Of a stretch of DNA of 64,000 nucleotides, positions 46,840 through 62,114 are shown one piece after another (positions within the stretch are counted from its first letter, which is position 1; each line of letters begins with the position of its first letter). The stretch spans positions 137,111 to 201,110 of the forward strand of contig JANNVX010000018.1 of assembly GCA_031414595.1 (NCBI GenBank), read 5' to 3'. The stretch comes from Deinococcales bacterium. Lineage in GTDB: Bacteria; Deinococcota; Deinococci; Deinococcales; JAAFIG01. Made by a program: the position numbers and the translations under genes. The notes under the pieces are model-generated. The model ran no database searches and was not told the origin of the DNA. It saw nothing but the letters and a program-made list of their open reading frames with translations.

Positions 46840-47040
46840 ATGGTCAAAGAACGAATTGCTTACCGAGTTTGCCCAAAGTGTGCCAGAGCCGTGCCTTTGG
46901 GGAGTGGGGAAAAATTTTGCAGCAACGATGGCGAGAAATTGCTCGAGGCTTGCCCAAAGTGTAATGCCCCCATTACCAGCCCATACGCACGATTTTGCTC
47001 GAGTTGTGGTCAAGATTTTTTTACTAAGGAGAAGCCATGA
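46840..47040 (+). CDS. Double zinc-ribbon protein
   Basis: CPKC, CSND, CPKC, CSSC; ATGA overlap with next gene. Confidence 0.85.
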   Translation: MVKERIAYRVCPKCARAVPLGSGEKFCSNDGEKLLEACPKCNAPITSPYARFCSSCGQDFFTKEKP

Positions 47041-50015
47041 AGTATTTATTCCCCATGATTTTGTCGGCTTTATTAGCGTGTAACCCGCCAACGCCGCCTA
47101 TAGAAAATAAAATTCCCGTAGTCGGGTTTACGGCTTTAGCCACTGTCCAAGCGGGTACAGCCCTTGGTTTCTCGAGTACCTCTACTGACCCTGACGGCGA
47201 CGCTTTAACGCTCTCTTGGGATTTTGGTAATGGGGTGCGTGGCGGCGGCGCAAGTATTGCCCATGTCTACCCCAAAGCGGGTTCGTTCACGGTCAAACTT
47301 ACGGCAGCCGATGGCAAAGGCGGAGTCTCGAGTGCGGAGAAAACCGTAACTGTCACAGCCAATAGTATTGTGGCTGGGGCAGCGCTCAGTGTGGTTGGCT
47401 CAATTTTTGATGCTGTTGGCGCACCACTGGCAGGTGTGTCTGTGCAACTAGATGGTGCAACCCTAGGCTCGAGCGATACAAACGGCAAGGTCACTTTGTC
47501 TGTACCGACTGGAATTCCAATCAACTTGGTCTTTGATAAAACTGGGTTTAGCCAAGGGTTTGCCGCCCTCGAGTTCCCGAAAGGTTCTAACGCCAGCAAT
47601 GCCGATTTTACGGCAACGCTGTTGGCTCGAGCCGCTGCCCAACCGATGAACGCCAGTACAGGTGGCGCAATCACTGGCACAGACAATGCCCGTCTCGAGT
47701 TACCCGCCAATGCTTTGGTCAAACCTGATGGTACGCCCGTAACGGGAACGGTCAATGTCAGTTTGTCGCCTGTGGATATTAACGACCCTCTCGAGAAAAG
47801 CGCTTTCCCTGGCAGTTTTGAAGGCGTGCAACCCAACGGCATAAGCACCGGCATTGTTTCCTTAGGTACAACCGAATTTGCCCTCGAGCAGGGTGGGCAG
47901 CGTCTGACCTTAAAAGCAGGGGCGAGTGCCAAAGTGCGCTTGCCGATGTACGCCAACACTAACCTCGATGGCAGCCCGATTAAATTAGGCGATAGCATTC
48001 CACTTTGGAGCTTAAACGAACAAACGGGCGATTGGGTACAAGAAGGCATAGGTGTGGTGGTGGATTCGGGTCCTGGAACAAGGGCGCTCGAGGCAACCGT
48101 GACCCATTTTAGTTGGTGGAATGCGGATATTGGTTTCATCCCAAGTTTTCCAAAACCCAAGTGTATTAACGATGTTCCGGGGCAGTACGACAGTATTTTT
48201 GAACAAGCCACATTCTGTAAATTCTTAGCCGAACTCGATAAACCAATTCCCGCTCTAAACTCGAGTTTACGTCCTCAAGCCGACCCGCCACGCTTACCTG
48301 CTTTTGCTGCCACAACCAATTTGCCAATTGTGGGGGGTTTTGGGTTACCCGTCCCAGCCGACACAAACATTCGCTACACAGGTTGTATTGCCAATAATAC
48401 TTTTTGTGGTTCGGTGGTGAAAAACTTTGTGGCTGGCTCGAGTGAAACTTTTGAAATTCGCCTTAAACGTACTGACACCGAAGATATTGGATTGCCATTT
48501 GATGCAGTCCGCAACATCAATGCGATTAAGCGTTTTACTTTTGACAGCAGCACCAATCCAAATGGGGTCAATATCACCTTAGAGCGCAGTGCAGGCTCGA
48601 GTTTTACTGGAACAGCTTTTTTACTCGACCCACAAGGCAACGAAATCAGTAACAAAGGCATTGGTGGCACAAGTCAAATCCTAGAATCACGATTATTTGC
48701 CAGTGGTAAACACATCCTCGAGATTCGCCCTAGTGCCGGCTCGAGCGGTGGTATTAGAATCCGAGTTGAACGCAAAAATTTTGTCGTCACCAGCAATTGG
48801 ACAACACTGACGCAAAGCGCCATTAGAATTGAGGATAATCCGAATGTGGTACTGAACAATGCTGGGCAGGGTGCAGCATTTTGGATACAAAAAGATGATT
48901 CTATTCAACCAACGCAATACGCATTAAACAGCAGCAGTTTTGATGCGACCAACAACACATGGGATGCTGTTCAACTGCTCGAGACGCAAAGCACTGATTA
49001 CCCAAATGTTGCACTGGGTGTGGCTGGTAACAATGATAAAATCATGATTTGGACGCAGCGTGCCGCTACAAACACAGTGCGTTGGAGTCGCCGTATTGCC
49101 AGCAGTAACGCTTGGAGTGCTGCCACAAACCTTGCGATTGTCAGTGCCAATAAATACGCCACCAATCCACAAATTAAAATGGACTCGAGCGGCAATGCTG
49201 TGGCGCTCTGGCTCGAGTTTGGTGGTGGTAATTTTGGAAATCAAATTCGCTTGGCACGATTCACAGCCACAACTGGAATTTGGGCAGTAGAAACCATAGC
49301 GGCTGGAAATTTTCCAGATACACCTGTATTGGCACTGGACGCAGCAGGAAACGTAGCAGTGCTGTACTTCGATTTTTCTCCAAGTCTTGGCTATTACTTC
49401 AAGCGCAACCTCGCAGGTGTGTGGAGTACCGCCACCAAATTATTCACCCCGAGCGCCGCGCCAAATGGTTTTACTTCGACCAAACTCGAGTTAAGTGCCA
49501 GTGGTAATGGCATGGCAATCTGGGATGACGCTGGAACACTCCGTGCTAGGGCTTATGATTTTGGCACAGACACATGGAAACCCGTCCAGAGTTTTGCTGG
49601 TACAAACGCTAAAATCGGGCTAAACTCGAGCGGAAATGCCAATTTAGCCTACCTCGAGTTTGCCAATCCAGCCGCTCTGTTCGCCCGGACGTACATTGCC
49701 ACAACCGACACATGGAGCGCCAGCCAAACCATTTCTGACTCGAGCAATGGTGGTGTGAACTTTGCTTTGAATAACCTCAACATGGCTTTTAACCCAACAG
49801 GCGATGCGGTCATAACCTTTGTTAAAGGGCAAGAAACCTTACTGTCTTCTCGAGCCTCGAGTGCCAGTGCTTGGACAACCCCAGTACCAGATGGTGCTTT
49901 TGAAACTCGTCGAGTTGCCTTGGACGACACTGGCAGGGCTGTGATTCTGCGAGTTGGATATAACGCCACGCTTTTCAAATACGAAGTTCAAGTTAAACGC
50001 ATCAACATTCGCTAA
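47037..50015 (+). CDS. PKD-domain lipoprotein with beta-propeller-like C-terminus
   Basis: LLAC lipobox; DPDGD.L...WDFG PKD; HFSWWNAD; repeated W-containing blades. Confidence 0.85.
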   Translation: MKYLFPMILSALLACNPPTPPIENKIPVVGFTALATVQAGTALGFSSTSTDPDGDALTLSWDFGNGVRGGGASIAHVYPKAGSFTVKLTAADGKGGVSSAEKTVTVTANSIVAGAALSVVGSIFDAVGAPLAGVSVQLDGATLGSSDTNGKVTLSVPTGIPINLVFDKTGFSQGFAALEFPKGSNASNADFTATLLARAAAQPMNASTGGAITGTDNARLELPANALVKPDGTPVTGTVNVSLSPVDINDPLEKSAFPGSFEGVQPNGISTGIVSLGTTEFALEQGGQRLTLKAGASAKVRLPMYANTNLDGSPIKLGDSIPLWSLNEQTGDWVQEGIGVVVDSGPGTRALEATVTHFSWWNADIGFIPSFPKPKCINDVPGQYDSIFEQATFCKFLAELDKPIPALNSSLRPQADPPRLPAFAATTNLPIVGGFGLPVPADTNIRYTGCIANNTFCGSVVKNFVAGSSETFEIRLKRTDTEDIGLPFDAVRNINAIKRFTFDSSTNPNGVNITLERSAGSSFTGTAFLLDPQGNEISNKGIGGTSQILESRLFASGKHILEIRPSAGSSGGIRIRVERKNFVVTSNWTTLTQSAIRIEDNPNVVLNNAGQGAAFWIQKDDSIQPTQYALNSSSFDATNNTWDAVQLLETQSTDYPNVALGVAGNNDKIMIWTQRAATNTVRWSRRIASSNAWSAATNLAIVSANKYATNPQIKMDSSGNAVALWLEFGGGNFGNQIRLARFTATTGIWAVETIAAGNFPDTPVLALDAAGNVAVLYFDFSPSLGYYFKRNLAGVWSTATKLFTPSAAPNGFTSTKLELSASGNGMAIWDDAGTLRARAYDFGTDTWKPVQSFAGTNAKIGLNSSGNANLAYLEFANPAALFARTYIATTDTWSASQTISDSSNGGVNFALNNLNMAFNPTGDAVITFVKGQETLLSSRASSASAWTTPVPDGAFETRRVALDDTGRAVILRVGYNATLFKYEVQVKRINIR

Positions 50016-50027
50016 AAGGAGTTTTTT

Positions 50028-51245
50028 ATGAAATTACTAGCCCCAATTATTCTGGCTGCCTTGCTGGTGGCTTGCCCCAACCCAAGCCCGACCAACCGCG
50101 CTCCAATCGCTGCTTTTACCATTTCGAGCAACCCTAGTACAGTTGGCACAACCCTCAATTTTAATGCCAGCACCTCGAGCGATCCAGACGGCAATGTTTT
50201 AACGTATGCTTGGAATTTTGGTGATTCCAGCACAGCAATCGGCGTGACAAGCTCGCACGCATTTGCAACCGCAGGTAGTTTCACAGTTATACTAACCGTC
50301 TCGGATGGAAAACTCAGCACACCAATCACCCAAAATCTAACCATTAACCCTGCTCCCTTGAGCTTTGGTAAAATCACCTATACCTATCAAAATAATGTCT
50401 ATCGAGTCAGCGCCCAAGCTGGCGCAACCCCAGAGAATGTCTCGGCGCTGATCACCACTGGCACACGCAAACCAGAGCGCCGCTTAAACATCTCGCCTAA
50501 TGGTACATGGCTGGTTCTCGAGACCCAAAACTTAGATGTCGGATGTGATGGCAATTACTGCCTTGCGGTTGCCCCAAGCGCCAATCCTGCCAGTGCCGCA
50601 GTGGTACGCACCCCAAATTTAGTTCAAGACTCCCAAGGTTTCCCTGCCATCTCCAGCGACGGCAACCTGATTGTTTACACCGCCAGTGGTGGCGCACATA
50701 ACTTTGACCTCTGGGCAATCCGTAAGACTGCTAATACTTGGGCTGCGCCAGTGCAGATTACCCAAACCAGCACCCAAAACTACAACGACCAGCCCGCCAT
50801 CTCGAGCGACGGCAGTAAGGTTTTGTTTGATTGCGGGGTTGTGGCTTTTGGCGAAGGTAACACCAGTATCTGCGAAATCGGCACAAACGGCACAGGTTTC
50901 AGGGTTGTGGTTTCCCCGAGTAACGCCCCCTCGAGTATTGCAAGTAAAGGACCGACCCATCATGCTGATTATTTGTCCGACGGAAGTATTGCCTTTGACA
51001 CAGCTTGGGATGCCGATGCAGTCTGGAAAATTCTTGGCAACACCATCAGCAAAGTCTCGCAGGTCAACAACAACGTCGCTCCATGTGGACTAAGCGGTGG
51101 CAAAGTTGCTTCGCTCTGGCTCGAGCGCAGTGGCAATACCAATGGTTATCACGAACTCATCATGACCGATAACAACGGAGCGAATCTTCAAACCATTGTC
51201 ACGGGAATTGACATCGAAGACATCGGTATTGGCTGTGGAGGGTAA
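50028..51245 (+). CDS. PKD-domain lipoprotein with TolB/PD40-like repeats
   Basis: LVAC lipobox; PKD; PAISSDG repeats. Confidence 0.85.
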   Translation: MKLLAPIILAALLVACPNPSPTNRAPIAAFTISSNPSTVGTTLNFNASTSSDPDGNVLTYAWNFGDSSTAIGVTSSHAFATAGSFTVILTVSDGKLSTPITQNLTINPAPLSFGKITYTYQNNVYRVSAQAGATPENVSALITTGTRKPERRLNISPNGTWLVLETQNLDVGCDGNYCLAVAPSANPASAAVVRTPNLVQDSQGFPAISSDGNLIVYTASGGAHNFDLWAIRKTANTWAAPVQITQTSTQNYNDQPAISSDGSKVLFDCGVVAFGEGNTSICEIGTNGTGFRVVVSPSNAPSSIASKGPTHHADYLSDGSIAFDTAWDADAVWKILGNTISKVSQVNNNVAPCGLSGGKVASLWLERSGNTNGYHELIMTDNNGANLQTIVTGIDIEDIGIGCGG

Positions 51246-51276
51246 AGGTCAAAAAACCGTAGGGGCGGGGCTTGTA

Positions 51277-51564
51277 TCATACACTCCGACTTAATCAAGA
51301 AAAACGTGTGCAACGCGAAAAAATCCTCCCCTGTCGTTAGACAGATGGGAGGTGGCGCGAGTGCAACGAGTGACGGAGGGGTCTGCGGCGCGTAAACGAA
51401 GAGACGCTGTGCAGACCCCTCCGACGCGCTTCGCTTGCCACCATTAGCACGCAGTGCTAATCGTCCTGCTTCGCGGGGAGGACAAAATCCAAGTGCTGAG
51501 TCACGAATTGAAACATAAGATTTACTGGTATAAACAGCAAAAACGATTAAGTCGGAGTCAATGA
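51277..51564. mobile_element. MITE-like element with 20-bp TIRs and a nested palindromic repeat
   Basis: TCATACACTCCGACTTAATC ... GATTAAGTCGGAGTCAATGA (18/20); no transposase ORF; REP halves on both sides. Confidence 0.7.
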
Positions 51565-51625
51565 CTTTGTGTTCGCCCTGTGAGACAACATGATTTGAAT
51601 TCGCCCTGCTCGAGAAAGGAAACCC

Positions 51626-52318
51626 ATGAAAAATAAATCCCTGATAGTTGCTTTTATTCTCGGCTCGAGCTTCATCGCTTGGGCTGCCTCGAGTACGCTT
51701 AAACTCAGCATTAACGGCACAGCGTACAGCCCAGCTGTAATTGTGCAGAACGGCAAAACCTATATCCCGCTCGAGGCGCTACAAAAAGCTGGGGTCAAAG
51801 CCATTGTTTCTAAAACCGAGGTCAAGCTCGAGTTGCCGGGCTTTGTCGGTGGCGCAAACCAACGGGCATCACTCGAGGGCTGCCTTGGTGAAACGCTTTT
51901 TAATGGGGTCTGGCGCATTAAAACCACCAAGCTCGAGGTGCTTAAAACCGATAAACTCGGCTGGGGCTTAACGCTCGAGGTCAAAAATGGAAGTCCAGCC
52001 ACAATCACGCCAGTGGATGCTGGTTTTGATGGGACTGGACAAGGTATTCAATTGGCTTTTGCCGATGCCAGCACGCTTAACGTCGATGCTATGGATGTCC
52101 AGAGAGTCACTTTTGCCAGTTTGCCGCCGGGTGGTGCAGTAACGCATCAGCTTAAATTCTTTTATCCGTTTGGGACAGCCGATAGTGCTATAAAAACCCC
52201 GACGAAGTTCCTGCTTGAGCTTAATCCAAAATCTATTGGCGACAGTACCAAAGCCAAAGGGGTGGCGTTTAGCGTACCTAATCCAAGTTTGCGGGTGCGC
52301 TTGGATTGTCAAAAGTAA
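51626..52318 (+). CDS. Secreted hypothetical protein
   Basis: Signal peptide ending AWA; V.QNGKTYIPL motif; AAGGA RBS. Confidence 0.8.
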   Translation: MKNKSLIVAFILGSSFIAWAASSTLKLSINGTAYSPAVIVQNGKTYIPLEALQKAGVKAIVSKTEVKLELPGFVGGANQRASLEGCLGETLFNGVWRIKTTKLEVLKTDKLGWGLTLEVKNGSPATITPVDAGFDGTGQGIQLAFADASTLNVDAMDVQRVTFASLPPGGAVTHQLKFFYPFGTADSAIKTPTKFLLELNPKSIGDSTKAKGVAFSVPNPSLRVRLDCQK

Positions 52319-52584
52319 AATTGCTTGTATTCAACTGGAGACTTGGGCTTAGGTTTTGATTATTGTGGGATAAAAGAACCCTTAACCGCCCCTTTTGGAA
52401 AACTACTTCTGCTTTGGTTGAGGGCAAAATTATTGTTGCTTCCTGATTGAAATTGCAAGAGCGTAGGCAAGTTTTAGCGCAGAAATTTCACAAGAACTAT
52501 TGACTATTTTTATCACGACACGATTTGACGCACTAGCCAACGAAACTCACCTTCGAGCGGTTTTAAGCCCTCGAGAGGAGTTTT

Positions 52585-52719
52585 ATGTTCAAGCGTGTTG
52601 TACAAATTTTACTCGCCGTCGTCCTTTTAGCCGTGGTTGCTGCACCTAATGCCAGTGTCACAACCCCAACCCCAGTTTTAATTGCTGGTGACGACCCCGG
52701 TGGTGGAACAGGCGGTTAA
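52585..52719 (+). CDS. 44-aa secreted peptide, candidate signalling pro-peptide
   Basis: GAGGAG RBS; MFKRVVQILLAVVLLAVVAAPNASVTTPTPVLIAGDDPGGGTGG; below ORF-track cutoff. Confidence 0.8.
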   Translation: MFKRVVQILLAVVLLAVVAAPNASVTTPTPVLIAGDDPGGGTGG

Positions 52720-52728
52720 TTTTAGGCG

Positions 52729-52760
52729 GTAGCGCCAAGAGCATCAGCTTTTGGCGCTAC
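52729..52760 (+). terminator. Hairpin between peptide and TPR gene
   Basis: GTAGCGCCAAGAGC-atca-GCTTTTGGCGCTAC; no U-tract; overlaps TACAAT 7 nt before the next ATG. Confidence 0.6.
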
Positions 52761-52770
52761 AATACTGACC

Positions 52771-54423
52771 ATGCGAATCAGTCCGACCAATCAATGGAAT
52801 GAATACTACATGCAATACAAAAAACTGGTTCGTCAACAACATTGGTTTGCTTTGCAGCAATCCTTTCCAGTCGTCTTGCGCTTGGCGCGTAATGTTAAAC
52901 AGCATCAGGATTTCTTAAAAATGATTGAACCACTGCAAAGCATCATCTTAAATCCGTCGAATCATCTGATTTATGCTGAACTACTACTTCGCGCTCGAGC
53001 TTTTACCAAAGCCCTACATTTTCTCGAGACCCTGATGCCAAACCCAAATGCCTTATCTTTATATGCTCTTGCCTTACTGCGAAACCAGCAACCGATAGAA
53101 GCCCTGAAACAAGCCCAAATTGCCTTACCCACAGGTATCCGTTTAGACCTTGCCTACCGAGTGATTGCCGAAGCCAGTTTTGAGATGCGTTTACCAAATT
53201 GGCAAAAAGCATTTGGCAAAGCAGTTGACCACACCAAAGGTCGTCAGTGCGGCTATGTCTGGATAGAATGGGGACGAGCTTTAGAACTTGAACTTCAAGG
53301 GGCTGCCGCTCGAGAATGCTGGGCAACAGCCCAAGATTTTTTTGAGCAAGATGCCTATTACCAAGCCCAAATCATGGCGAATATGGGTTTATCCTGTGTT
53401 AAAGAATTAAAACTCGAGGAAGCAGAAGGTCATTACGCCCAACTCTTGAAACGCGCTTCACACCCAGAAGCCAAGAGTTTTCAGTCTCAAGCCTGGCGCG
53501 GTTTTGGTTTATCTTGGCGAGCCGCAGGAGAATATCAACGTGCGCTATTTGCTTATGAAAAAGCCTTAAAACTCTCCAAAGAACCCTTTGATAAAATCCA
53601 AGCCCAACGTGGCATCGGTCATACCCTGCGCTTACAAGGTTATCCAAGCCAAGCTCTAACGCACCTACAAAAAGCCTTGGCAATCCAAAAGAAAAATAAT
53701 CTTCCCCTGACCATTTACCCAGACTTAGCGGCAGCACGGCTTAGCAACGGCAACATCGAAGCTGCCTTAAACGACCTCGAGCAATGGCAAGGCAGGGGCG
53801 AAGACGAGGAACGCCGTCAGATTGTCTTTGCCGAAATCGCACGGCAACACCAAAATCCTAACCTTGCGCTCGAGTATGCCCAAAAAGTACGTTGGTACAG
53901 CCTTTGGGGACGTGAAGAACTCAAATGTTTTGCAAAACTTCAAGCCTTATTGATGAGCATGAACCTGACCTTACCTGAATCACCACCAAGCAATGCAGAA
54001 TTTCAGATTGTGGTCAGAGCCAGAGGGACATTGCAAATCAGTATTAACCAACGCCGCCTGAGCATTAACCCTACCAGTCGGGCGGCACAACTCTTGGTTT
54101 TACTGCTCGAGCATCATCAGTCTCGCAGCGCCCGTGATTTACTCCTCGATTTTTATCCAAACACCACCAAGGTTGAAGCTCGAGCCAAACAAAAACTAAT
54201 TTCAAAAGCTGTGGCTGCTTTACGTGAAATGCTTGGTTGGAATGAAAGTGTGATGCAAAAAGGTGGGGTTTATAGCCTCGACCCGAACAGCATTTGGCAT
54301 TACGATGTACAAGAAGCACGGGGAAAAGGCGAAGCGGTTGCGGTGTTTATGACGGGTGTAAGTGAAGATTGGGTACTCGAGCGAATACGATCTTTTGATC
54401 ATCAACCACGCGATTTGAACTGA
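52771..54423 (+). CDS. TPR protein with C-terminal SARP/OmpR-type winged helix
   Basis: TPR motifs (AWRGFG..W...GEY..AL.AYEKAL; RGIGH.L...G....AL..LQKAL); C-terminus similar in pattern to that of 39757..42834. Confidence 0.85.
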   Translation: MRISPTNQWNEYYMQYKKLVRQQHWFALQQSFPVVLRLARNVKQHQDFLKMIEPLQSIILNPSNHLIYAELLLRARAFTKALHFLETLMPNPNALSLYALALLRNQQPIEALKQAQIALPTGIRLDLAYRVIAEASFEMRLPNWQKAFGKAVDHTKGRQCGYVWIEWGRALELELQGAAARECWATAQDFFEQDAYYQAQIMANMGLSCVKELKLEEAEGHYAQLLKRASHPEAKSFQSQAWRGFGLSWRAAGEYQRALFAYEKALKLSKEPFDKIQAQRGIGHTLRLQGYPSQALTHLQKALAIQKKNNLPLTIYPDLAAARLSNGNIEAALNDLEQWQGRGEDEERRQIVFAEIARQHQNPNLALEYAQKVRWYSLWGREELKCFAKLQALLMSMNLTLPESPPSNAEFQIVVRARGTLQISINQRRLSINPTSRAAQLLVLLLEHHQSRSARDLLLDFYPNTTKVEARAKQKLISKAVAALREMLGWNESVMQKGGVYSLDPNSIWHYDVQEARGKGEAVAVFMTGVSEDWVLERIRSFDHQPRDLN

Positions 54424-54484
54424 GTTAGATGCACTCAGGTTATCAGAGTACAGATACAAATTGTAAATAAAAGCGACCATCAGG

Positions 54485-54506
54485 CGACAGGGGTGGAGTA
54501 TTGTCG
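54485..54506. promoter_or_regulatory. Candidate WYL-regulator operator
   Basis: CGACA-N12-TGTCG upstream of the WYL gene RBS. Confidence 0.4.
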
Positions 54507-54532: not shown

Positions 54533-55519
54533 ATGAAAGCTACTCAGAAAAAAACCATTCGTTTACAACAAGTACAAAAACTGCTCGAGGCTGCACCACG
54601 CACTTACCAAGACCTTTGTAATCGGCTCGAGATAGACCACTCACCAGCCAGTATACGGGCTTTACAACGTGATTTAACCGATCTTACCAACCAAGGTTTT
54701 GAGATTACCTCTCAAGCAACACGCCCTGAGAAGTTCAAAATTACCAAAAGTCCACCGCCACGCATGAAACCCGACGAAGCCCTTGCTGCCCATATCGCTT
54801 TGCGTCTGCTGTACCACCACTCGAGCAACCCACCAAAAAGTTATCAGAACGCCCTCGAGAAGATTTTACTGACCATGCCACCGCAAATGCAGCAAATCGC
54901 CAAGCAGTCCATGCCCAACAACCAAGGTACAGAAGAAAAATTCTTTGAATTTGAAAAAATTGCAAATTGTTGGACAAAACGCCAAACTATCCACTTTGAT
55001 TATCTGGCATTAAGTACCAGCAGTCAAAAACCCCATAAGACCGAACTCGAGATTTATTTTGTAGAAATTTCCAGAAGCAACTTTGAAATATATGTGATTG
55101 GACGCAGAATTAACCACCCACCTTATGAAGTCAGAACATTTATGCTCAGCCTGATGAAAGGCATTACGCCACTCGGTCAGCACTACGAAATACCACTGGA
55201 TTTTGACCCACAAGTCTTTTTATCCGATGCTTGGGGGGTGATTGGCAACCGTGAGTCTATGTTAGTGCGGCTAAAATTTGACGCTAGTGTACGGCGCTGG
55301 CTCGAGAACAGACGCTTTCCGGGGGTCAAGCACCGTCAAACCGATGAAGAGGGTAATTATATTCTGACGATTGAAATTGGGGTCAACAGTAAAGGCGAAC
55401 CGCAAGAACTGATGCCGTTTATTCGGGGCTGGGGTGCAAAAGTTGAGGTTCTCGAGCCGCAGGGGTTACGGCAACGGTGGCTCGAGGATGCGCGGGAAAT
55501 TTTACGGAGGTACGAATGA
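54533..55519 (+). CDS. HTH-WYL-WCX transcriptional regulator
   Basis: R.LQRDL HTH; IYVIG..VRTF; F.P..FL..AWG; WGAKVEVLEP. Confidence 0.9.
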   Translation: MKATQKKTIRLQQVQKLLEAAPRTYQDLCNRLEIDHSPASIRALQRDLTDLTNQGFEITSQATRPEKFKITKSPPPRMKPDEALAAHIALRLLYHHSSNPPKSYQNALEKILLTMPPQMQQIAKQSMPNNQGTEEKFFEFEKIANCWTKRQTIHFDYLALSTSSQKPHKTELEIYFVEISRSNFEIYVIGRRINHPPYEVRTFMLSLMKGITPLGQHYEIPLDFDPQVFLSDAWGVIGNRESMLVRLKFDASVRRWLENRRFPGVKHRQTDEEGNYILTIEIGVNSKGEPQELMPFIRGWGAKVEVLEPQGLRQRWLEDAREILRRYE

Positions 55520-57705
55520 AACCAGAGTATGCGGCACACACGCCACGCGACGCAAAAGACCCTAATTCACCTTGGCACGAATTGCTTGAACATTTGGAAA
55601 CGGTGGCAAAAGATGCGGCTGTGTTCGCCAGTAAATTCGGTGCAGCCGAAATTGCACACTGGGCTGGAATGCTTCATGATACAGGGAAATTTAGCAGTGC
55701 TTTTCAAGCTTATTTATGGGAAGCTCATATTGCAAAACGCGATGACAAATCACAACCAGAGAAAGGCAAAGCACCTCACGCAATGACAGGTGCTGTCATC
55801 ACAAGACTTTTTGCCTTAAATGATGAATTGGCAACAGGCTTAGAGTTGCCTTGGGTTATTGCAGCACATCATGCAGGGCTAAAGTCTAAAACTGATTTAC
55901 TCGATAGTATCAAAGAAAAAAGCGAAACTGCTTTAGTACAAGACGGTGTGCAAAAAGCCTTTAGCTGGAAAAAATTAGCATTACTAACACAAGAAAATTT
56001 TGAATTTCCACAAACTCACTTCAAAACAAAACTTGAGCGCGAATTTTTTGTCCGAATGTTGCTCAGTTGCTTGGTGGATGCAGACCATTTAGATACTGAA
56101 GCCTTTGGTAGCCCACACAAAAGTAAAATTCGAGGGGAAGATAAAATTCCTTTAGAAACCTTACTTGACAAGTTAAAATCGGCACAGCTTGAGAAAATAG
56201 CTCAGGCAGAACAAAATGAAGTTAATATAATTCGTGCCGAAGTTTACTACCGAGCTTTAGAACGCGCTTCTGAATCGAAAGGTTTTTTTAGACTCAGCGT
56301 TCCTACAGGTGGTGGAAAAACCAGAAGTTCGCTTGCATTTGCGCTACAACACGCCATTTTGCATAACCTTGAACGAGTCATTTATGTTGTGCCGTATTTA
56401 ACAATTACACGCCAAATCGCACAAGATTTTAGCGAAGTTCTTGGTGCAGAAAATATTCTTGAGAGTCATAGCGGCGTTCAACATGACCCAAATGAAGGCG
56501 AAACTTGGACTAAATTAGCGGCAGAGAACTGGGATGGAAAGATTATTGTCACAACAGGCGTACAATTCTTAGAGGCTTTATTTGCTCGGAAACCGTCTAA
56601 GTTACGAAAACTACATCGAATCAGCCGAAGCGTAATTATTTTCGATGAAGCACAAACCCTTCCTGCGCCGTTATTAACACCAATTATGGATGTTTTGCAT
56701 CAAGTAGTAGATACTTACCACTCGAGTATCGTATTTTGCACAGCAACACAACCAGCCCTAGATTCGGGAAGCGGATTTCCAGATTTACAGAGCCGAGAAA
56801 TTGCACCAGACCCGAACCGTCTTTTTCGGAATCTTGAGAGGGTAAAGTATCAATTTTCGTGGGAGGCGTGGGATTGGCAACGAATTGCAAAAGAATTGGT
56901 TCAACATCAGCAAGTGCTTTGTGTGGTCAATACCAGAGCGCACGCTCGAGCTATTTTTTCGGCGCTGAATGACCCTGAAGCAATTCATTTAAGTACCCAT
57001 TTATGCGGCGCTCATCGTCAAAGACAAATCGCAAAAATTCAAACAAGACTCGAGCAAAAACAACCATGCCGCGTAATTTCCACCCAATTGATTGAAGCAG
57101 GAATAGACCTTGATTTCCCAGTTGTGTACCGAGCTTTTGCACCGTTAGATAGCATCGTACAAGCTGCTGGTCGCTGTAACCGTAACATGAAATTGTACCC
57201 AGAAAAAGGTTTAGTGGTGGTTTTTCAGCCAGAACAACTAGGTTTACCTAAAGGCGTTTATGAAGCTGCGACCCATAAAACCCAAAGCTGGTTACGCAAA
57301 GGAATTGACTTAAATGCTGCCGATACATTTCATAAATACTTTACTGAATTGCATAACGCCACGGATACGGATGCCCGTAAAATTCAGAGTCTACGCCAAG
57401 ATTTTGATTACCCGAATGTTAGTCAAGAATTTCGTGTAATTGAGGATGATACTGAAGCTGTTTTGGTAAGACAATACGCTCCTGAAATTGTCGCAGCTAT
57501 TCTTAGCCAACCATTTAACCGTCAAACAATGCGAAAATTACAACCTTACCTTGTGAATGTCTTCAAAAAACAACTCGAAAAACTAGACCGCGCTACCCTG
57601 ATTCGACCTTGTGCTGAACACCCCGATTTGCTTGAGTGGGTTGGTAAATACGATGACAACTTGGGAATTCTCGAGGAGGTGAACGTGGAAATGACCGTGA
57701 TGTAA
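55516..57705 (+). CDS. cas3: CRISPR helicase/nuclease Cas3
   Basis: L.EHL, LHDTGK, HH, LVDAD, PTGGGKT, DEAQ, TAT, QAAGRCNR. Confidence 0.97.
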   Translation: MKPEYAAHTPRDAKDPNSPWHELLEHLETVAKDAAVFASKFGAAEIAHWAGMLHDTGKFSSAFQAYLWEAHIAKRDDKSQPEKGKAPHAMTGAVITRLFALNDELATGLELPWVIAAHHAGLKSKTDLLDSIKEKSETALVQDGVQKAFSWKKLALLTQENFEFPQTHFKTKLEREFFVRMLLSCLVDADHLDTEAFGSPHKSKIRGEDKIPLETLLDKLKSAQLEKIAQAEQNEVNIIRAEVYYRALERASESKGFFRLSVPTGGGKTRSSLAFALQHAILHNLERVIYVVPYLTITRQIAQDFSEVLGAENILESHSGVQHDPNEGETWTKLAAENWDGKIIVTTGVQFLEALFARKPSKLRKLHRISRSVIIFDEAQTLPAPLLTPIMDVLHQVVDTYHSSIVFCTATQPALDSGSGFPDLQSREIAPDPNRLFRNLERVKYQFSWEAWDWQRIAKELVQHQQVLCVVNTRAHARAIFSALNDPEAIHLSTHLCGAHRQRQIAKIQTRLEQKQPCRVISTQLIEAGIDLDFPVVYRAFAPLDSIVQAAGRCNRNMKLYPEKGLVVVFQPEQLGLPKGVYEAATHKTQSWLRKGIDLNAADTFHKYFTELHNATDTDARKIQSLRQDFDYPNVSQEFRVIEDDTEAVLVRQYAPEIVAAILSQPFNRQTMRKLQPYLVNVFKKQLEKLDRATLIRPCAEHPDLLEWVGKYDDNLGILEEVNVEMTVM

Positions 57706-57709
57706 GACG

Positions 57710-57793
57710 GGCGCATCAGAGGGTGTACCATGATGCGCCACATGAGAAACAACAGGTCTTTCACTATTTCAATCCTCGCTTAATAGCGAATAC
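57710..57793 (-). ncRNA. Solitary crRNA-like regulatory RNA (CreR/CreA-like)
   Basis: Pseudo-repeat ending CGAGGATTGAAAT, guide AGTGAAAGACCTGTTGT matching 57820-57836, 3' GC hairpin. Confidence 0.8.
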
Positions 57794-57806
57794 AAGTTTA
57801 CACTGA

Positions 57807-57858
57807 AGTATAACAAAGTACAACAGGTCTTTCACTAAGAATTAAACTATGCTATGTT
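57807..57858. promoter_or_regulatory. Overlapping divergent promoters containing the guide target
   Basis: Minus: GTGAAA-N17-TATACT with TG extension; plus: TTCACT-N16-TATGTT with TG extension. Confidence 0.6.
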
Positions 57859-57865
57859 GACTGGC

Positions 57866-58054
57866 ATGACCTACTCCACATCACCCCAAATCTTAGTTGA
57901 TACCGCTCATGACTGCTTTTCAAAAGCAATAGATGCTTCTGTCTGTCATGATTGTCCGCATTCTACAGCCCTCAAGGAGCAGTGGCGATTGGAGATTTTG
58001 GAGGAAATACATTTTAGAAATATGGATAGTGGCGAATTCAGTGAAGTTGATTGA
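57866..58054 (+). CDS. Small leaderless ORF (62 aa), function unknown
   Basis: ATG 7 nt after TATGTT; contains CHDC; ends 29 nt before cas5. Confidence 0.45.
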   Translation: MTYSTSPQILVDTAHDCFSKAIDASVCHDCPHSTALKEQWRLEILEEIHFRNMDSGEFSEVD

Positions 58055-58083
58055 CCGAAAACTCAAGAAAGGAGTGTGAAACC

Positions 58084-58788
58084 TTGCCAACCAATAATGC
58101 TATTCGTCTAAAAATCTCGAGTGACTTTGCTTGCTTTACTCGCCCTGAGAACAAAGTAGAGCGTGTTTCTTATGATGTCATCACACCAAGCGCGGCTCGA
58201 GGTGTGTTAGAAGGTATTCTCTGGAAACCCGAAATGCGTTACCGAATTACCGAGATTTGGGTTTTGAAACCAATTAAGCGATTTTCTATTGTCCGTAACG
58301 AAATTCAAAACCTTATCGTACCCAAAACAGCCAAAGGTTGGGCGCAGAACGGAGCAGGAGGATATGCGGCTGACGACAACCGTACACAACGCCACTCGCT
58401 TATTTTACGTGATGTAGAGTACATTATTCATGCCGAAATAGACTTGATGCCTCGAGCCAGTGACCCATTGCCTAAGTATCTGGAAATGTTCTCACGCCGA
58501 GTCGAAAAAGGGCAGGCGCACCGAATGCCATATTTAGGCAACCGAGAATTCACAGCCAGTTTTGAACCTGTGAACGGTTCGGAAAAAGCAATACCAGAAG
58601 ACAACGAATTAGGCAGAATGCTGTTTGATCTTGAATTTGCGACCCAGAAAAAAGGTGGCATCAGTTTTAAGCAACACACTCCAAACGGTAGCACATGGGT
58701 GGATGGCGTGGCTAAACCTAAATTTTTTCGAGCCAAACTCGAGCAGGGCATTTTGCGTGTGCCACAAGAATTATATGGGGGTATCTGA
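58084..58788 (+). CDS. cas5: Type I-C Cas5 (Cas5d)
   Basis: FACFTRPE.KVERVSYDVITPSAARG, LRDVEY, YLG.REF; AAGGAG RBS before TTG. Confidence 0.97.
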   Translation: MPTNNAIRLKISSDFACFTRPENKVERVSYDVITPSAARGVLEGILWKPEMRYRITEIWVLKPIKRFSIVRNEIQNLIVPKTAKGWAQNGAGGYAADDNRTQRHSLILRDVEYIIHAEIDLMPRASDPLPKYLEMFSRRVEKGQAHRMPYLGNREFTASFEPVNGSEKAIPEDNELGRMLFDLEFATQKKGGISFKQHTPNGSTWVDGVAKPKFFRAKLEQGILRVPQELYGGI

Positions 58789-61471: not shown

Positions 61472-61475
61472 AACC

Positions 61476-62114
61476 ATGAACGAACCCTCCCAAATTCCCC
61501 TTTCGAGCCTGATGCACTACGCCTACTGCCCACGCCGTTGCGCCCTGATTCACCTCGAGAACATCTGGGAGGACAACGAATACACCGCCAAAGGCACACG
61601 CAGCCATACTCGAGCCGATGAACCGACCATCGAATTACTCGAGGGAATCCGAATCGAACGCGCCTTACCGCTTTTTAATGATGCCCTCGAGTTAAGTGGT
61701 CGTGCCGATGTGGTCGAGTTTATGCCTGACGAAACACCATTTCCTGTTGAGTACAAAAGCGGTAAACGCAAAAAAAGCCCAGACCCCGAAACCGCTAATC
61801 TCGAGAAACTCTGCGATGATATTCAGCTTTGCGCCCAAGCCCTGTGCCTCGAAGAAATGCTCGAGATTCGTGTCCCAAAAGGCGCGATTTACCATATTGC
61901 CAGCAAACGCCGCCGCGACATTGAATTTAGCCCAGCCTTACGAACCCGAACCTTGGAAGTGATCGAGGCAGTGCGAAGCCAATTGCAAAGCGGTATCACT
62001 CCCGAACCTGTCAATGACCAACGTTGTACCCATTGCAGCCTACAAAGTGCTTGTATGCCCAGTGTGCGAAATCTCGAGACTTCTGACCCATTCTTGCCCG
62101 AGGAGATGTCATGA
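61476..62114 (+). CDS. cas4: Cas4
   Basis: YCPR, G.ADVVE, PVEYK, QLCAQ, C..CSL...C. Confidence 0.97.
   Translation: MNEPSQIPLSSLMHYAYCPRRCALIHLENIWEDNEYTAKGTRSHTRADEPTIELLEGIRIERALPLFNDALELSGRADVVEFMPDETPFPVEYKSGKRKKSPDPETANLEKLCDDIQLCAQALCLEEMLEIRVPKGAIYHIASKRRRDIEFSPALRTRTLEVIEAVRSQLQSGITPEPVNDQRCTHCSLQSACMPSVRNLETSDPFLPEEMS

What the first reader, a model, noticed from the sequence alone, without database searches (positions are those of the whole stretch)
52585..54423. Unannotated secreted peptide plus TPR/winged-helix protein: candidate peptide-signalling system in Deinococcota
Seen: a 44-aa ORF with strong RBS, basic N-terminus, hydrophobic core, linker and tail GDDPGGGTGG, then a 14-bp hairpin, then a 550-aa TPR protein with no signal peptide and a C-terminal DNA-binding-like domain. 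Known: Firmicute RRNPP systems (Rap-Phr, PlcR-PapR, NprR-NprX, AimR-AimP) pair a TPR receptor with an adjacent small secreted pro-peptide whose short, often C-terminal fragment is re-imported. Inference: an analogous pair outside Firmicutes with the DNA-binding domain at the opposite end, so possibly a distinct receptor family.
Basis: partly seen in the sequence, partly recalled or inferred. Interest (0 to 1): 0.87.

Follow-up and report, generated by a model that had tools for sequence, protein, structure and literature searches.

The report
CRISPR-linked secreted peptide and receptor pair
A tiny secreted peptide gene and a cytoplasmic repeat protein that can bind DNA travel together across the Deinococcus-Thermus group, usually at the head of CRISPR immune gene clusters, and look like a peptide-signalling switch for bacterial immunity.

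Summary
The 44-aa ORF and the 550-aa TPR protein form a conserved cassette across Deinococcales.

- **Distribution:** the receptor profile matches 123 of 364 genomes of the phylum. By my reading of the ORF lists, 90 of 99 receptor genes with readable upstream DNA carry a short same-strand ORF just upstream. That ORF has a basic and hydrophobic signal-like N-terminus and a conserved C-terminal tail.
- **Tail types:** the tail is either [AG]-[DE]-[DE]-x-K-x-G-x-G-G or a Cys-containing variant.
- **Selection:** the peptide ORF is under purifying selection.
- **Receptor:** it is a TPR superhelix followed by a C-terminal SARP/OmpR-type winged helix (AfsR Z 12.5).

The gene after the receptor is an HTH-WYL-WCX regulator in 53 of 59 fetched loci. 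In 43 of those 59, CRISPR-Cas operons follow: I-C in the window, I-E elsewhere. Two paralogues in this genome head III-B loci.

Shared CGACA half-sites form an inverted repeat upstream of the peptide gene and an 11-bp-period direct repeat upstream of the WYL gene.

Best reading: an RRNPP-like but non-homologous peptide and receptor switch wired to CRISPR-Cas. Peptide binding, re-import and regulation are inferred, not shown.

The parts
52507..52584 (+). Conserved non-coding block upstream of the peptide gene (promoter and operator region)
   Evidence: It is nearly invariant among 4 orthologous loci, while the DNA further upstream cannot be aligned and the coding DNA differs at many synonymous sites.
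52516..52530 (+). Inverted-repeat operator candidate CGACA-N5-TGACG (family consensus CGCGACA-N5-TGTCGCG)
   Evidence: The pattern CGACA-N5-TG[TA]CG lies upstream of the peptide ORF in 17 of 75 loci. It is in 0 of 75 receptor-to-WYL spacers and 0 of 225 coding control segments.
52576..52580 (+). Ribosome-binding site AGGAG, 4 nt before the ATG
   Evidence: Read directly from the sequence; conserved in the orthologues.
52585..52719 (+). Pre-pro-peptide gene, 44 aa: basic n-region MFKR, hydrophobic core, linker, tail AGDDPGGGTGG
   Evidence: ORF. It has no Pfam or NCBIfam family. Against its orthologues it shows 18 synonymous and 10-12 non-synonymous codon differences; in the tail, 4-5 synonymous and 0-1 non-synonymous. 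Family members lie next to 90 of 99 receptors.
52729..52760 (+). Stem-loop between the peptide and receptor genes (likely RNA attenuator or stabiliser)
   Evidence: The stem is conserved in the orthologues while the loop varies. A perfect stem of 9 or more is present in 25 of 72 family spacers, with different sequences, against a mean of 0.6 in shuffles. No T-run follows it, and the terminator scan lists no site here.
52771..54423 (+). Receptor gene, 550 aa: TPR superhelix (residues 1-396) plus C-terminal SARP/OmpR-type winged helix (residues 405-541)
   Evidence: Pfam TPR hits; models; VIA-align. Full-length match to PADLOC PDLC01171 (E 6.8e-107) and PDLC01092 C3a198 (E 4.2e-68).
53983..54420 (+). 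DNA-binding domain of the receptor (winged helix plus a short BTAD-like helical stub)
   Evidence: AfsR Z 12.5, EmbR Z 12.0, OmpR-family Z about 8. Profile against PDB sequences: EmbR E 0.045, AfsR E 0.25. Trans_reg_C matches 5 of 20 members weakly.
54474..54489 (+). Direct repeat CGACC-N6-CGACA (11-bp period), a SARP-box-like site upstream of the WYL gene
   Evidence: The pattern [CT]GAC[AC]-N6-CGACA is in the receptor-to-WYL spacer of 14 of 75 loci, always on the gene strand. It is in 0 of 75 regions upstream of peptides and 0 of 225 coding controls. An 11-bp spacing of direct repeats is the SARP target signature (PMC10936776, passages).
54499..54504 (+). Candidate -10 element TATTGT inside a conserved block GTATTGTCGTG, 9 bp after the second repeat
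   Evidence: The block is invariant in 4 loci down to 41% receptor identity. Assigning it as a -10 element is inference.
54533..55519 (+). HTH-WYL-WCX regulator gene, the third conserved gene of the module
   Evidence: Pfam WCX, WYL and HTH_11. PADLOC WYL 'CAS associated_signaling'. A homologue lies directly after the receptor in 53 of 59 fetched 8-kb loci.
55477..63145 (+). Type I-C cas operon: cas3, cas5, cas8c/csd1, cas7, cas4, cas1 (the presumed regulated target)
   Evidence: Pfam.

Best explanation
This is a CRISPR-associated peptide and receptor regulatory module.

1. The small gene encodes a Sec-type pre-pro-peptide. After export and trimming, its conserved C-terminal roughly 10-mer is the signal. 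In the window that is xAGDDPGGGTGG; the family consensus is [AG]-[DE]-[DE]-x-K-x-G-x-G-G, with Cys variants.
2. The neighbouring 550-aa protein is its cytoplasmic receptor. A TPR superhelix would bind the re-imported peptide and so control a C-terminal SARP/OmpR-type winged helix.
3. That winged helix recognises CGACA half-sites at two promoters. One site is an inverted repeat in front of the peptide gene (autoregulation). The other is an 11-bp-period direct repeat in front of the WYL regulator and cas operon, where the receptor would act as a SARP-like activator.
4. The output is population-level, or lysis-released 'alarm', control of the adjacent CRISPR-Cas system. Each cassette uses its own peptide tail.

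Shown here: the conserved gene pair, purifying selection on the peptide, signal-peptide-like features, the receptor folds, linkage to WYL and cas genes, and position-specific repeats. Inferred: export, processing, re-import, peptide binding to TPR, which protein binds which site, and the sign of regulation.
For: **Conserved pairing**
- The receptor profile matches 123 of 364 Deinococcota genomes at E <= 1e-15: f1 17 of 18, f2 66 of 125, f4 37 of 68.
- The strict criterion gives 75 of 99 receptors against 10 of 265 controls. The tail HMM gives 79 of 99 against 9 of 265, and the 9 control hits are the same peptides.
- My reading: 90 of 99 intact, 4 degenerate or atypical, 5 none.
- The pair is also kept in the clade that lacks WYL, so peptide plus receptor is the minimal unit.

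**The peptide is translated and looks exported**
- Pairwise codon differences are 18 synonymous against 10-12 non-synonymous. In the tail they are 4-5 synonymous against 0-1 non-synonymous.
- 86 of 88 unique peptides have K or R within 8 aa before an uncharged stretch of median 17.5 aa. The 10-68 aa after it vary in sequence and end in the conserved tail.

**The receptor**
- It has no signal sequence. Its TPR model has RapI (Z 18.4), phi105 Rap with peptide (17.9), NprR-NprX (17.5) and AimR (15.6) among the top structural neighbours, tied with generic TPRs.
- The C-terminal domain matches AfsR at Z 12.5.

**Operators**
- The inverted repeat is upstream of peptides in 17 of 75 loci. The direct repeat is upstream of WYL in 14 of 75. 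Neither is found at the other position or in 225 coding controls.

**CRISPR linkage**
- WYL is adjacent in 53 of 59 loci. cas genes are adjacent in 43 of 59.
- In this genome 3 of 6 cassettes head the I-C, III-B and III-B loci.

**Tails, import and precedent**
- Co-resident cassettes carry different tails, and tail classes follow the receptor tree: CC 3 changes, CxxC 2 changes, 0 of 500 shuffles as low.
- The genome holds 15 SBP_bac_5 matches, of which 13 span most of the profile; these are possible peptide importers.
- AHL quorum sensing is known to control CRISPR-Cas in Serratia (PMC5179492, listing and abstract).
Against: - There is no direct evidence of secretion, cleavage, import or binding.
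- SignalP was not available. The window peptide has no clean A-x-A cleavage site by eye.
- The tail is unusually conserved across genera for a pheromone, and it is Gly-rich and acidic, unlike known RRNPP peptides.
- These bacteria have an outer membrane that the peptide would have to cross twice.
- The strict IR and DR patterns are found in only 17 and 14 of 75 loci.
- Both sites share one half-site, so the WYL protein rather than the receptor could bind one or both.
- 16 of 59 cassettes have no cas genes within the DNA examined, and 3 of 6 in this genome have none within 7 kb.
- RRNPP receptors tie with generic TPR proteins in the fold search, so that similarity does not discriminate.
- The tree-label clustering may only reflect co-inheritance of neighbouring genes.
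Confidence: 0.5

Rival explanations
1. The peptide is a secreted or envelope product in its own right, for example a small bacteriocin-like, metal-binding or disulfide peptide, or a RiPP precursor. The TPR and winged-helix protein only regulates it and the neighbouring genes. The peptide is not the receptor's ligand.
For: - Tails are Gly-rich and acidic or carry CC or CxxC motifs.
- A stem-loop directly after a short structural gene is common for abundantly expressed peptide precursors; here it is enriched, 25 of 72 against 0.6 in shuffles.
- The tail is strongly conserved across genera.
Against: - No modification, immunity or export genes are conserved next to the pair. The conserved neighbours are the receptor, WYL and cas genes.
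- This reading does not explain why the pair heads CRISPR-Cas loci of three subtypes.
- It does not explain why co-resident cassettes keep distinct tails.
Confidence: 0.17
2. The module is an export or infection sensor that needs no re-import. Normally the peptide is exported and lost. When Sec export or the envelope is disturbed, for example by phage infection, the unexported pre-peptide accumulates in the cytoplasm. Its C-terminal tail then binds the TPR receptor, which switches on WYL and cas genes.
For: - The facts are the same as for the main reading: signal-like N-terminus, cytoplasmic TPR receptor, cas linkage.
- It removes the need to cross the outer membrane and be re-imported.
- It fits the high conservation of the tail.
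- The peptides are so short (10-25 aa after the hydrophobic core in many) that export must follow release from the ribosome, so a cytoplasmic pool exists.
Against: - I know of no precedent for this mechanism, and none was found in my searches.
- Distinct tails in co-resident cassettes are harder to explain if all of them report the same export stress.
Confidence: 0.13
3. The short ORF is a regulatory leader (uORF). Translation of its conserved C-terminal codons just before the stop, together with the following hairpin, attenuates or couples expression of the receptor gene, as arrest or leader peptides do. The peptide has no function after release.
For: - The conserved motif sits at the extreme C-terminus directly before the stop codon.
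- A hairpin starts about 10-25 nt after the stop in many loci.
- The receptor start codon in the window has no obvious Shine-Dalgarno sequence.
Against: - The signal-like N-terminus (86 of 88) would have no role.
- The hydrophobic core is too close to the C-terminus (10-25 aa in many) to have left the ribosome tunnel at termination. A SecM-, VemP- or MifM-type pulling mechanism therefore cannot work; this rests on established knowledge of tunnel length.
- Tails differ between paralogues (Gly class, CC class, CxxC class), which is unexpected for one ribosome-arrest motif.
Confidence: 0.1

Closest known systems
RRNPP/RRNPPA peptide quorum-sensing systems of Firmicutes and their phages (Rap-Phr, NprR-NprX, PlcR-PapR, PrgX, Rgg, AimR-AimP)
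   Same: - A small Sec-type propeptide gene lies directly next to a cytoplasmic TPR receptor.
- The conserved part of the propeptide is its last roughly 10 residues.
- Several cassettes with different peptides occur per genome.
- Rap, NprR and AimR are among the top structural neighbours of the TPR part (Z 15.6-18.4).
- The signature criteria are from PMC10075063 (passages).
   Different: - No sequence homology to RRNPP was detected; only generic TPR Pfam hits appear.
- The DNA-binding domain is C-terminal and of the SARP/OmpR winged-helix type, not an N-terminal XRE-type HTH or 3-helix bundle.
- The receptor is 520-600 aa, above the 250-500 aa criterion.
- The peptide gene comes first.
- The host phylum is Deinococcota, which has an outer membrane.
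- The module is wired to CRISPR-Cas loci.
SARP regulators (AfsR, EmbR, small SARPs of actinomycetes)
   Same: - The C-terminal domain superposes on the AfsR and EmbR winged helix plus the first BTAD helices (Z 12.5 and 12.0).
- The candidate target site is a pair of direct repeats with an 11-bp period close to a -10-like element, as described for SARPs (PMC10936776, passages).
- AfsR also combines a SARP domain with a TPR sensor.
   Different: - The domain order is reversed: TPR first, winged helix last.
- There is no NB-ARC/NOD ATPase, and the BTAD is reduced to a stub.
- Sequence similarity is marginal (EmbR E 0.045).
- The family is paired with a secreted peptide and sits next to cas genes rather than antibiotic clusters.
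C3a198 'TPR protein' (cluster 198 of Shah et al. 2019, PMC6546367) and PADLOC PDLC01171 'TPR repeats containing protein'
   Same: It is the same protein family. Matches are full-length: E 4.2e-68 and 6.8e-107 for the window protein, and all 6 paralogues match. The family was already listed as a candidate accessory gene of type III-B CRISPR-Cas.
   Different: The paper lists it only in a table: 3 members, example Mrub_1490, 'TPR protein'. It is not discussed in the main text I searched. I did not see the supplements. No peptide partner, DNA-binding domain, WYL partner, link to I-C or I-E, or operator sites is mentioned there.
WYL-domain regulators of defence systems (CRISPR-associated WYL proteins; the BrxR/CapW type is recalled from memory)
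   Same: The third gene has the HTH-WYL-WCX architecture. It matches PADLOC 'WYL, CAS associated_signaling' and sits directly before cas genes.
   Different: Here the WYL gene is preceded by a dedicated peptide and TPR-winged-helix pair. It also matches the N-terminal third of a 'Cas3c' profile, and in L092 the longest ORF spans both WCX and Cas3 domains. It may therefore work with Cas3 rather than, or as well as, acting as a transcription factor.
Quorum-sensing control of CRISPR-Cas by AHL signals in Serratia (PMC5179492); Pseudomonas is recalled from memory
   Same: The proposed logic is the same: a cell-density signal raises CRISPR-Cas expression.
   Different: Those are global LuxI/LuxR-type circuits encoded elsewhere in the genome. 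Here the signal would be a peptide, and the sensor is encoded in the cas locus itself, one cassette per locus.

Membership tests
RRNPP-type quorum sensing (signature of PMC10075063) | Small propeptide, 10-100 aa | tested here: met
   44 aa in the window; family members are about 35-65 aa from plausible start codons.
RRNPP-type quorum sensing (signature of PMC10075063) | Propeptide secreted through Sec (SignalP-positive) | tested here: inconclusive
   SignalP was not available. By heuristic, 86 of 88 unique peptides have K or R before an uncharged stretch of median 17.5 aa. Many paralogues have A-x-A-like sites by eye; the window peptide does not clearly have one.
RRNPP-type quorum sensing (signature of PMC10075063) | Receptor of about 250-500 aa | tested here: not met
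   550 aa; the family ranges over 520-600 aa.
RRNPP-type quorum sensing (signature of PMC10075063) | Receptor carries TPRs | tested here: met
   Pfam TPR_2, TPR_12 and TPR_1 above their cut-offs; all-helical superhelix model.
RRNPP-type quorum sensing (signature of PMC10075063) | Propeptide and receptor genes are direct neighbours | tested here: met
   A 51-nt gap in the window; 90 of 99 family loci.
RRNPP protein superfamily (homology) | Sequence or specific structural homology to Rap, NprR, PlcR, PrgX, Rgg or AimR, with an N-terminal HTH or 3-helix bundle | tested here: not met
   Only generic TPR Pfam hits were found. The DNA-binding domain is a C-terminal SARP-type winged helix. RRNPP chains tie with APC, LGN and MalT in VIA-align, so fold similarity is not specific.
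RRNPP-type quorum sensing | The mature peptide is re-imported and binds the TPR groove | not testable with these tools
   This needs biochemistry. Possible importers exist: 15 SBP_bac_5 matches in the genome.
SARP family | OmpR-type winged helix followed by a BTAD | tested here: met
   AfsR Z 12.5 (136 of 146 residues aligned) and EmbR Z 12.0. The BTAD part is only a short stub.
SARP family | N-terminal position of the SARP domain; Pfam Trans_reg_C plus BTAD above threshold | tested here: not met
   The domain is C-terminal. The window protein has no Trans_reg_C or BTAD hit. Trans_reg_C matches 5 of 20 members, best E 0.0021.
SARP family | Targets are direct repeats 11 or 22 bp apart near the -10 element | tested here: inconclusive
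   A direct repeat with an 11-bp period lies upstream of the WYL gene in 14 of 75 loci and in 0 of 300 control regions. Binding was not tested.
C3a198 / PADLOC 'TPR' CRISPR accessory family | Full-length profile match | tested here: met
   PDLC01171 E 6.8e-107 (profile positions 9-499 of 504); PDLC01092 E 4.2e-68 (positions 34-517 of 523).
C3a198 / PADLOC 'TPR' CRISPR accessory family | Genomic linkage to cas genes | tested here: met
   The window cassette heads an I-C operon. 43 of 59 fetched loci are cas-linked. L003 and L004 head III-B operons.

The most novel reading that the evidence does not exclude
Deinococcota encode dedicated peptide communication (or alarm) circuits hard-wired to individual CRISPR-Cas loci. 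Each cas operon (I-C, I-E, III-B) carries its own secreted pro-peptide 'code' and its own cognate cytoplasmic TPR and SARP-winged-helix receptor. CRISPR immunity would then be switched on collectively by a locus-specific peptide. This would be an independently evolved, non-Firmicute analogue of RRNPP signalling and the first cas-encoded quorum or alarm sensor.
Probability: 0.4. Interest if true: 0.93.

Novelty: new variant of a known kind. Interest (0 to 1): 0.86.

Why it matters
**Peptide signalling beyond Firmicutes.** Cytoplasmic-receptor peptide signalling of the RRNPP type is treated as a Firmicute and phage trait. The large surveys I read scanned Firmicutes and viruses only (PMC10075063), and their 250-500 aa receptor cut-off would miss this family. 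A conserved, phylum-wide peptide and receptor pair in Deinococcota, built on a different DNA-binding domain, would show that this signalling logic evolved more than once.

**Control of CRISPR-Cas.** How CRISPR-Cas expression is controlled is an open question in most bacteria. The known density control uses global AHL circuits. Here the candidate sensor is encoded inside the cas locus, moves with three CRISPR subtypes, and comes with predicted operators and a defined roughly 10-residue ligand. The question can therefore be tested directly in cultured Deinococcus or Meiothermus with synthetic peptides.

**An existing catalogue entry.** The finding also gives a concrete function to the entry 'C3a198, TPR protein', and gives the CRISPR-linked WYL regulators an upstream partner.

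Tried and rejected
- **Complex prediction** of the receptor with the peptide (residues 15-44): 'no answer', score 0.03 against a mark of 0.32. Controls were not run. This is no evidence either way.
- **RNA evidence**: no RNA holder was listed for window 52400-55600. None was listed, which does not mean none exists.
- **The listing of cluster members** for 10 peptides could not be made because the database was switched off. Accession-level annotation of the peptides in cultured genomes is therefore unknown.
- **The search for related loci** with alignments A1 and A2 failed for lack of a conserved 7-10 column stretch. Viral contigs were therefore never scanned, and whether phages carry the cassette is open.
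- **The single genome-contig scan** returned only 4 near-identical MAG loci.
- **Foldseek against the PDB** with the whole model gave only generic TPR proteins in the rows shown. RRNPP chains appeared only with VIA-align and were tied with generic TPRs.
- **A shared 7-mer ACACGAC** was a misreading on my part and is not enriched: 6 found against 5.8 expected. The real shared half-site is CGACA.
- **The hairpin as a common DNA operator** was rejected. Its sequence differs between lineages while the structure is kept.
- **The hairpin as a canonical intrinsic terminator** is not supported in the window. No T-run follows it and the scan lists no terminator there.
- **A SecM-type arrest peptide** was rejected on geometry (see the rival explanations).
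- **Chance or gene-calling artefact** was rejected by the controls and by the codon pattern.
- **The IQ-TREE run of treekit** timed out. The tree used is FastTree only.
- **Literature searches.** 'RRNPP' with 'Deinococcus' gave 1 unrelated paper. 'CRISPR', 'WYL', 'tetratricopeptide' and 'Deinococcus' listed nothing describing this module. 'CRISPR-Cas', 'quorum sensing', 'peptide pheromone' and 'cas operon' listed only AHL or global regulators. 'CRISPRicity' and 'TPR' found a different STAND-TPR family.
Full report
**1. The observation**

- AGGAG lies at 52576..52580, 4 nt before an ATG.
- A 44-aa ORF at 52585..52719 encodes MFKRVVQILLAVVLLAVVAAPNASVTTPTPVLIAGDDPGGGTGG.
- A stem-loop at 52729..52760 has a perfect 10-bp stem, about 13-14 bp with further A-U and G-U pairs.
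- Ten bases later a 550-aa ORF runs from 52771 to 54423.

Pfam finds TPR_2, TPR_12 and TPR_1 above their cut-offs in the large protein. It finds nothing in its last roughly 150 residues, and the peptide has no Pfam or NCBIfam family.

**2. The receptor**

An AlphaFold2 model built on 26 family sequences is confident (pLDDT 92.4, pTM 0.89). Residues 1-396 are an all-helical repeat superhelix. Residues 412-541 form a strand and helix domain.

- *C-terminal domain.* Folded alone (pLDDT 91.8), it aligns best to AfsR (8hvr_J, Z 12.5, rmsd 3.1, 136 residues) and EmbR (2fez_A, Z 12.0). OmpR/PhoB-family DNA-binding domains follow at Z about 8.
- *Sequence agreement.* A sequence profile of this domain agrees weakly: EmbR E 0.045 and AfsR E 0.25. 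Trans_reg_C matches 5 of 20 members, best E 0.0021. The C-terminal domain is therefore a SARP-type winged helix with a short BTAD-like stub.
- *TPR part.* Foldseek against the PDB gave only generic TPR proteins. VIA-align against 48,161 chains gave a tied top group:

| Chain | Z |
|---|---|
| APC Cut9 | 19.6 |
| LGN | 19.0 |
| MalT domain III | 18.8 |
| RapI | 18.4 |
| phi105 Rap with peptide | 17.9 |
| NprR-NprX | 17.5 |
| RapH | 17.0 |
| AimR | 15.6 |
| PlcR | 13.3 |

RRNPP receptors are thus among the nearest folds, but no nearer than other TPR superhelices.

- *Family size.* The family is small and uniform. The C-terminal-domain profile finds 175 representatives at E <= 1e-10 among 1.84 billion, and 84 at E <= 1e-30. 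The full-length ones are 500-600 aa with the domain at the C-terminal end.

**3. The pair is conserved**

The window lies in a Deinococcales MAG (record titles of near-identical contigs).

*Distribution.*
- The own genome has six paralogues at 26-31% identity.
- 18 of 19 genomes of the family have the protein, mostly in several copies.
- A profile search of 364 genomes of the phylum finds it in 123:

| GTDB family | Genomes with a match |
|---|---|
| f1 | 17 of 18 |
| f2 | 66 of 125 |
| f4 | 37 of 68 |
| f3 | 0 of 23 |
| f5 | 2 of 128, weak |

*Loci examined.* I examined the 30 loci returned by each of the two searches. I also fetched 60 further loci, taken from the best-scoring places. They were chosen by score and are not a random sample.

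*Tally of upstream peptides.*
- 99 receptor ORFs had at least 300 nt of upstream DNA.
- A strict criterion asked for a same-strand ORF of 28-160 aa ending within 600 nt upstream, a hydrophobic window, and an acidic-then-Gly-rich or two-Cys tail. It was met by 75 of 99 receptors, against 10 of 265 other long ORFs in the same loci.
- A tail HMM at 8 bits or more found 79 of 99 against 9 of 265. All 9 control hits are the same receptor-adjacent peptides, reached through spurious ORFs overlapping the receptor gene.
- Reading the remaining loci by eye gives 90 of 99 with an intact peptide ORF.
- Four are degenerate or atypical: L020, L028, L051 and L109.
- Five have none: L063, L072 and L085 of one genus, plus L065 and L114.
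- Four further receptor ORFs were cut off by contig ends and are not counted.

**4. The peptide**

*Purifying selection.* Among three orthologues whose receptors are 73-75% identical, the peptide ORFs differ at 18 synonymous and 10-12 non-synonymous codons. In the tail (codons 34-44) the differences are 4-5 synonymous and 0-1 non-synonymous. The tail is therefore kept at the protein level.

*Signal-like N-terminus.* Of 88 unique peptides, 86 have K or R within 8 residues before an uncharged stretch of median 17.5 residues. After it come 10-68 residues (median 23) of variable sequence, ending in the conserved tail.

*Tail classes.* Tails fall into three classes:
- a Gly class, for example AGDDPKIGTGG; the window has AGDDPGGGTGG;
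- a CC class, for example AGDGPKCCTGG;
- a CxxC class, for example LVDDPKPCASC.

*Public annotation.* 42 family peptides are present as predicted proteins. They are named 'hypothetical protein' or left unnamed, except one labelled 'cytochrome c biogenesis factor', and none has a Pfam family.

*Limits.* SignalP could not be run. By eye, many paralogues have A-x-A sites (for example ...SIAHA|EDGGKVNTGG), but the window peptide has no clean one.

**5. The stem-loop**

In the orthologues the stem is invariant and the loop varies.

| Perfect stem | Family spacers | Shuffles, mean | Shuffles, maximum |
|---|---|---|---|
| 7 or more | 38 of 72 | 7.75 | 19 |
| 9 or more | 25 of 72 | 0.6 | 2 |

The hairpin sequences are unrelated between lineages. 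This points to an RNA structure, such as an attenuator or stabiliser setting the ratio of peptide to receptor, and not to a shared DNA site. In the window no T-run follows, and the terminator scan lists no site there.

**6. Context: a third gene and CRISPR-Cas**

*The window.* The receptor is followed by an HTH-WYL-WCX gene at 54533..55519. A complete type I-C operon comes next: cas3, cas5, cas8c, cas7, cas4 and cas1.

*Other loci.*
- A homologue of the WYL gene lies directly after the receptor in 53 of the 59 fetched 8-kb loci that contain a complete receptor ORF (tblastn; Pfam).
- cas genes lie within the locus or a 12-kb extension in 43 of those 59.
- They are I-C in 17 loci.
- They are I-E in about 25 loci. 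In several of these the module sits between cas3 and cse1.
- One locus has cas6, cas3, cas1 and cas4.
- Sixteen have none in the DNA examined, and two or three of those are limited by contig ends.

*This genome.*
- Two further paralogues, L003 on C82 and L004 on C69, each lie directly upstream of cas10 of a type III-B cmr operon.
- In both the order is small CARF protein, peptide, receptor, cas10.
- Three paralogues have no cas genes within 7 kb.
- So three of the six cassettes head three different CRISPR-Cas loci, with the tails AGDDPGGGTGG (I-C) and AEDGGKVNTGG (both III-B).

*Prior knowledge.*
- PADLOC profiles PDLC01171 'TPR repeats containing protein' and PDLC01092 'C3a198' match the receptor over its full length (E 6.8e-107 and 4.2e-68).
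- C3a198 is cluster 198 of Shah et al. 2019 (PMC6546367). It is listed in a table only: 3 members, example Mrub_1490, type III-B, 'TPR protein'. I did not see the supplements.
- The peptide, the winged helix, the WYL partner and the I-C and I-E links are not mentioned there.
- A related preprint (10.1101/270033, passages) describes a different TPR-STAND family.

**7. Candidate operators**

The roughly 78 nt before the peptide ATG are nearly invariant among orthologues. Across lineages, two arrangements of one half-site appear, each at its own position.

| Pattern | Upstream of peptide ORF | Receptor-to-WYL spacer | Coding controls |
|---|---|---|---|
| Inverted repeat CGACA-N5-TG[TA]CG (best copies CGCGACA-N5-TGTCGCG) | 17 of 75 | 0 of 75 | 0 of 225 |
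| Direct repeat [CT]GAC[AC]-N6-CGACA (11-bp period, always on the gene strand) | 0 of 75 | 14 of 75 | 0 of 225 |

In the window these sites are at 52516..52530 and 54474..54489. The direct repeat is followed 9 bp later by TATTGT, inside a block that is invariant down to 41% receptor identity.

Direct repeats 11 or 22 bp apart, with the 3' repeat 8 bp from the -10 element, are the described SARP target architecture (PMC10936776, passages). It is inference that the receptor binds these sites and activates the WYL and cas promoter. The WYL protein is the alternative binder.

**8. Tree**

A FastTree of 102 receptors (the IQ-TREE run did not finish) splits into two clades.
- One has 16 rows. All are from family f1, none has a WYL gene, and it includes the CxxC class and the III-B-linked AEDGG cassettes.
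- The other has 86 rows. It is WYL-linked and includes the window.

Tail classes cluster on the tree: CC needs 3 changes and CxxC needs 2, and 0 of 500 shuffles were as low. Because neighbouring genes are inherited together, this shows co-inheritance. It is compatible with co-diversification but does not prove it. Co-resident cassettes carry different tails in every multi-copy genome I looked at except the two III-B cassettes of this genome.

**9. Mechanism and rivals**

*Best reading (0.5).* A secreted pro-peptide yields a C-terminal roughly 10-mer that is re-imported. The genome has 15 SBP_bac_5 matches as possible importers. The peptide binds the TPR receptor, which then controls its own operon and the WYL and cas promoter through its SARP-type winged helix.

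*Rivals.*
- The peptide is an extracellular product in its own right (0.17).
- The module senses export failure, with the unexported pre-peptide binding the receptor in the cytoplasm (0.13).
- The short ORF is a leader-peptide attenuator (0.1).

The attenuator rival leaves the universal signal-like N-terminus unexplained. It also cannot work by translocon pulling, because the hydrophobic core is only 10-25 residues from the stop in many members.

Complex prediction gave no verdict, and no RNA run was listed. Neither counts as evidence.

**10. Comparison and novelty**

The pair meets four of the five RRNPP signature criteria of PMC10075063: a small propeptide, signal-like features (by heuristic only), TPRs and adjacency. 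It fails the receptor-length criterion. It is not a homologue by any test I could run, and its DNA-binding domain is of another type and sits at the other end. It works like an RRNPP system but is not a member.

The receptor family was already catalogued as a CRISPR accessory gene. My searches found nothing in print on:
- the peptide partner;
- the DNA-binding domain;
- the three-gene module;
- its spread across I-C, I-E and III-B loci;
- the operator candidates.

I rate this a new variant of a known kind, of high interest. It would make locus-encoded peptide control of CRISPR-Cas directly testable.

Noticed in passing
whole window (e.g. 52554..52559, 52571..52576, 53016..53021): The palindrome CTCGAG occurs 337 times in 64 kb, against 8.45 expected from dinucleotide shuffles. 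This is a roughly 40-fold over-represented, highly iterated palindrome found in coding and non-coding DNA. It recalls HIP1 of cyanobacteria (recalled from memory).
   Followed up: partly
window 54533..55519 and 55477..57705; locus L092:170-3403(-): The WYL-WCX gene overlaps the cas3 start by 43 nt in the window. In L092 the longest ORF (1077 aa) has Pfam WCX and Cas3 helicase domains in one frame. The window WYL protein matches positions 3-316 of the 1009-position PADLOC 'Cas3c' profile (E 1.3e-42). WYL-Cas3 fusions therefore seem to exist, and the WYL protein may act on or with Cas3.
   Followed up: partly
L157:3789-4187(+) and L158:9083-9496(-) (G000 contigs C82 and C69): Stand-alone CARF proteins of 133-138 aa (PADLOC CARF/Csx1 N-terminal domain, E down to 1e-16) lie just upstream of the peptide and receptor pairs that head the two type III-B loci. 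Each is preceded by a 146-151-aa ORF (for L157 a weak HTH-like hit, E about 1e-4; the L158 one was scanned only at E <= 1e-8 and gave no hit). In these loci a CARF protein stands where the WYL protein stands in the type I loci.
   Followed up: partly
window 54412..54443; also L157:6285-6320 and L158 (receptor stop region): In family f1 the receptor ends in ...LN-stop, within a conserved DNA element TTGAAY-TGAGT-N7/8-ACTCA-GATAAT-like. This looks like a sigma-70-type -35/-10 pair with a palindromic spacer overlapping the stop codon. 20 of 103 receptors end in LN, and the strict palindrome is present at 7 of 103. It may be a second, repressible promoter for the downstream WYL or cas10 operon.
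   Followed up: partly
L157:15381-17240(+) (G000 C82): The type III-B locus headed by the L003 cassette carries a reverse-transcriptase gene (PADLOC RT, E 2.9e-72, and N-terminal part of Cas1_IIIb, E 1.7e-53) followed by a separate cas1. It also carries Csx1 (CARF-HEPN) and a CARF protein with two transmembrane helices.
   Followed up: no
window 47037..52318: Upstream of the cassette lie three secreted or lipoprotein-like genes. One is a 992-aa protein. One is a 405-aa protein with PKD and PD40 domains. One is a 230-aa protein with a signal-like N-terminus and no Pfam family. They are not conserved next to the module elsewhere.
   Followed up: no
L159:4746-6416(-) (G000 C72) and L095:5797-7137(-): In L095 a Pfam Peptidase_S8 subtilase gene lies just upstream of the peptide gene. 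In L159 the upstream ORF looked subtilisin-like to me by eye only and was not scanned against Pfam. A possible processing protease, but seen in at most 2 of the roughly 100 loci.
   Followed up: no
L063, L072, L085 (genomes G137-G139, one genus): Three receptors of one genus lack the upstream peptide; a thioredoxin gene is there in L063 and L072 (Pfam), and L085 has another upstream ORF. They also lack cas genes in the 12 kb examined for two of the three. The signal gene and the CRISPR link may have been lost together.
   Followed up: partly
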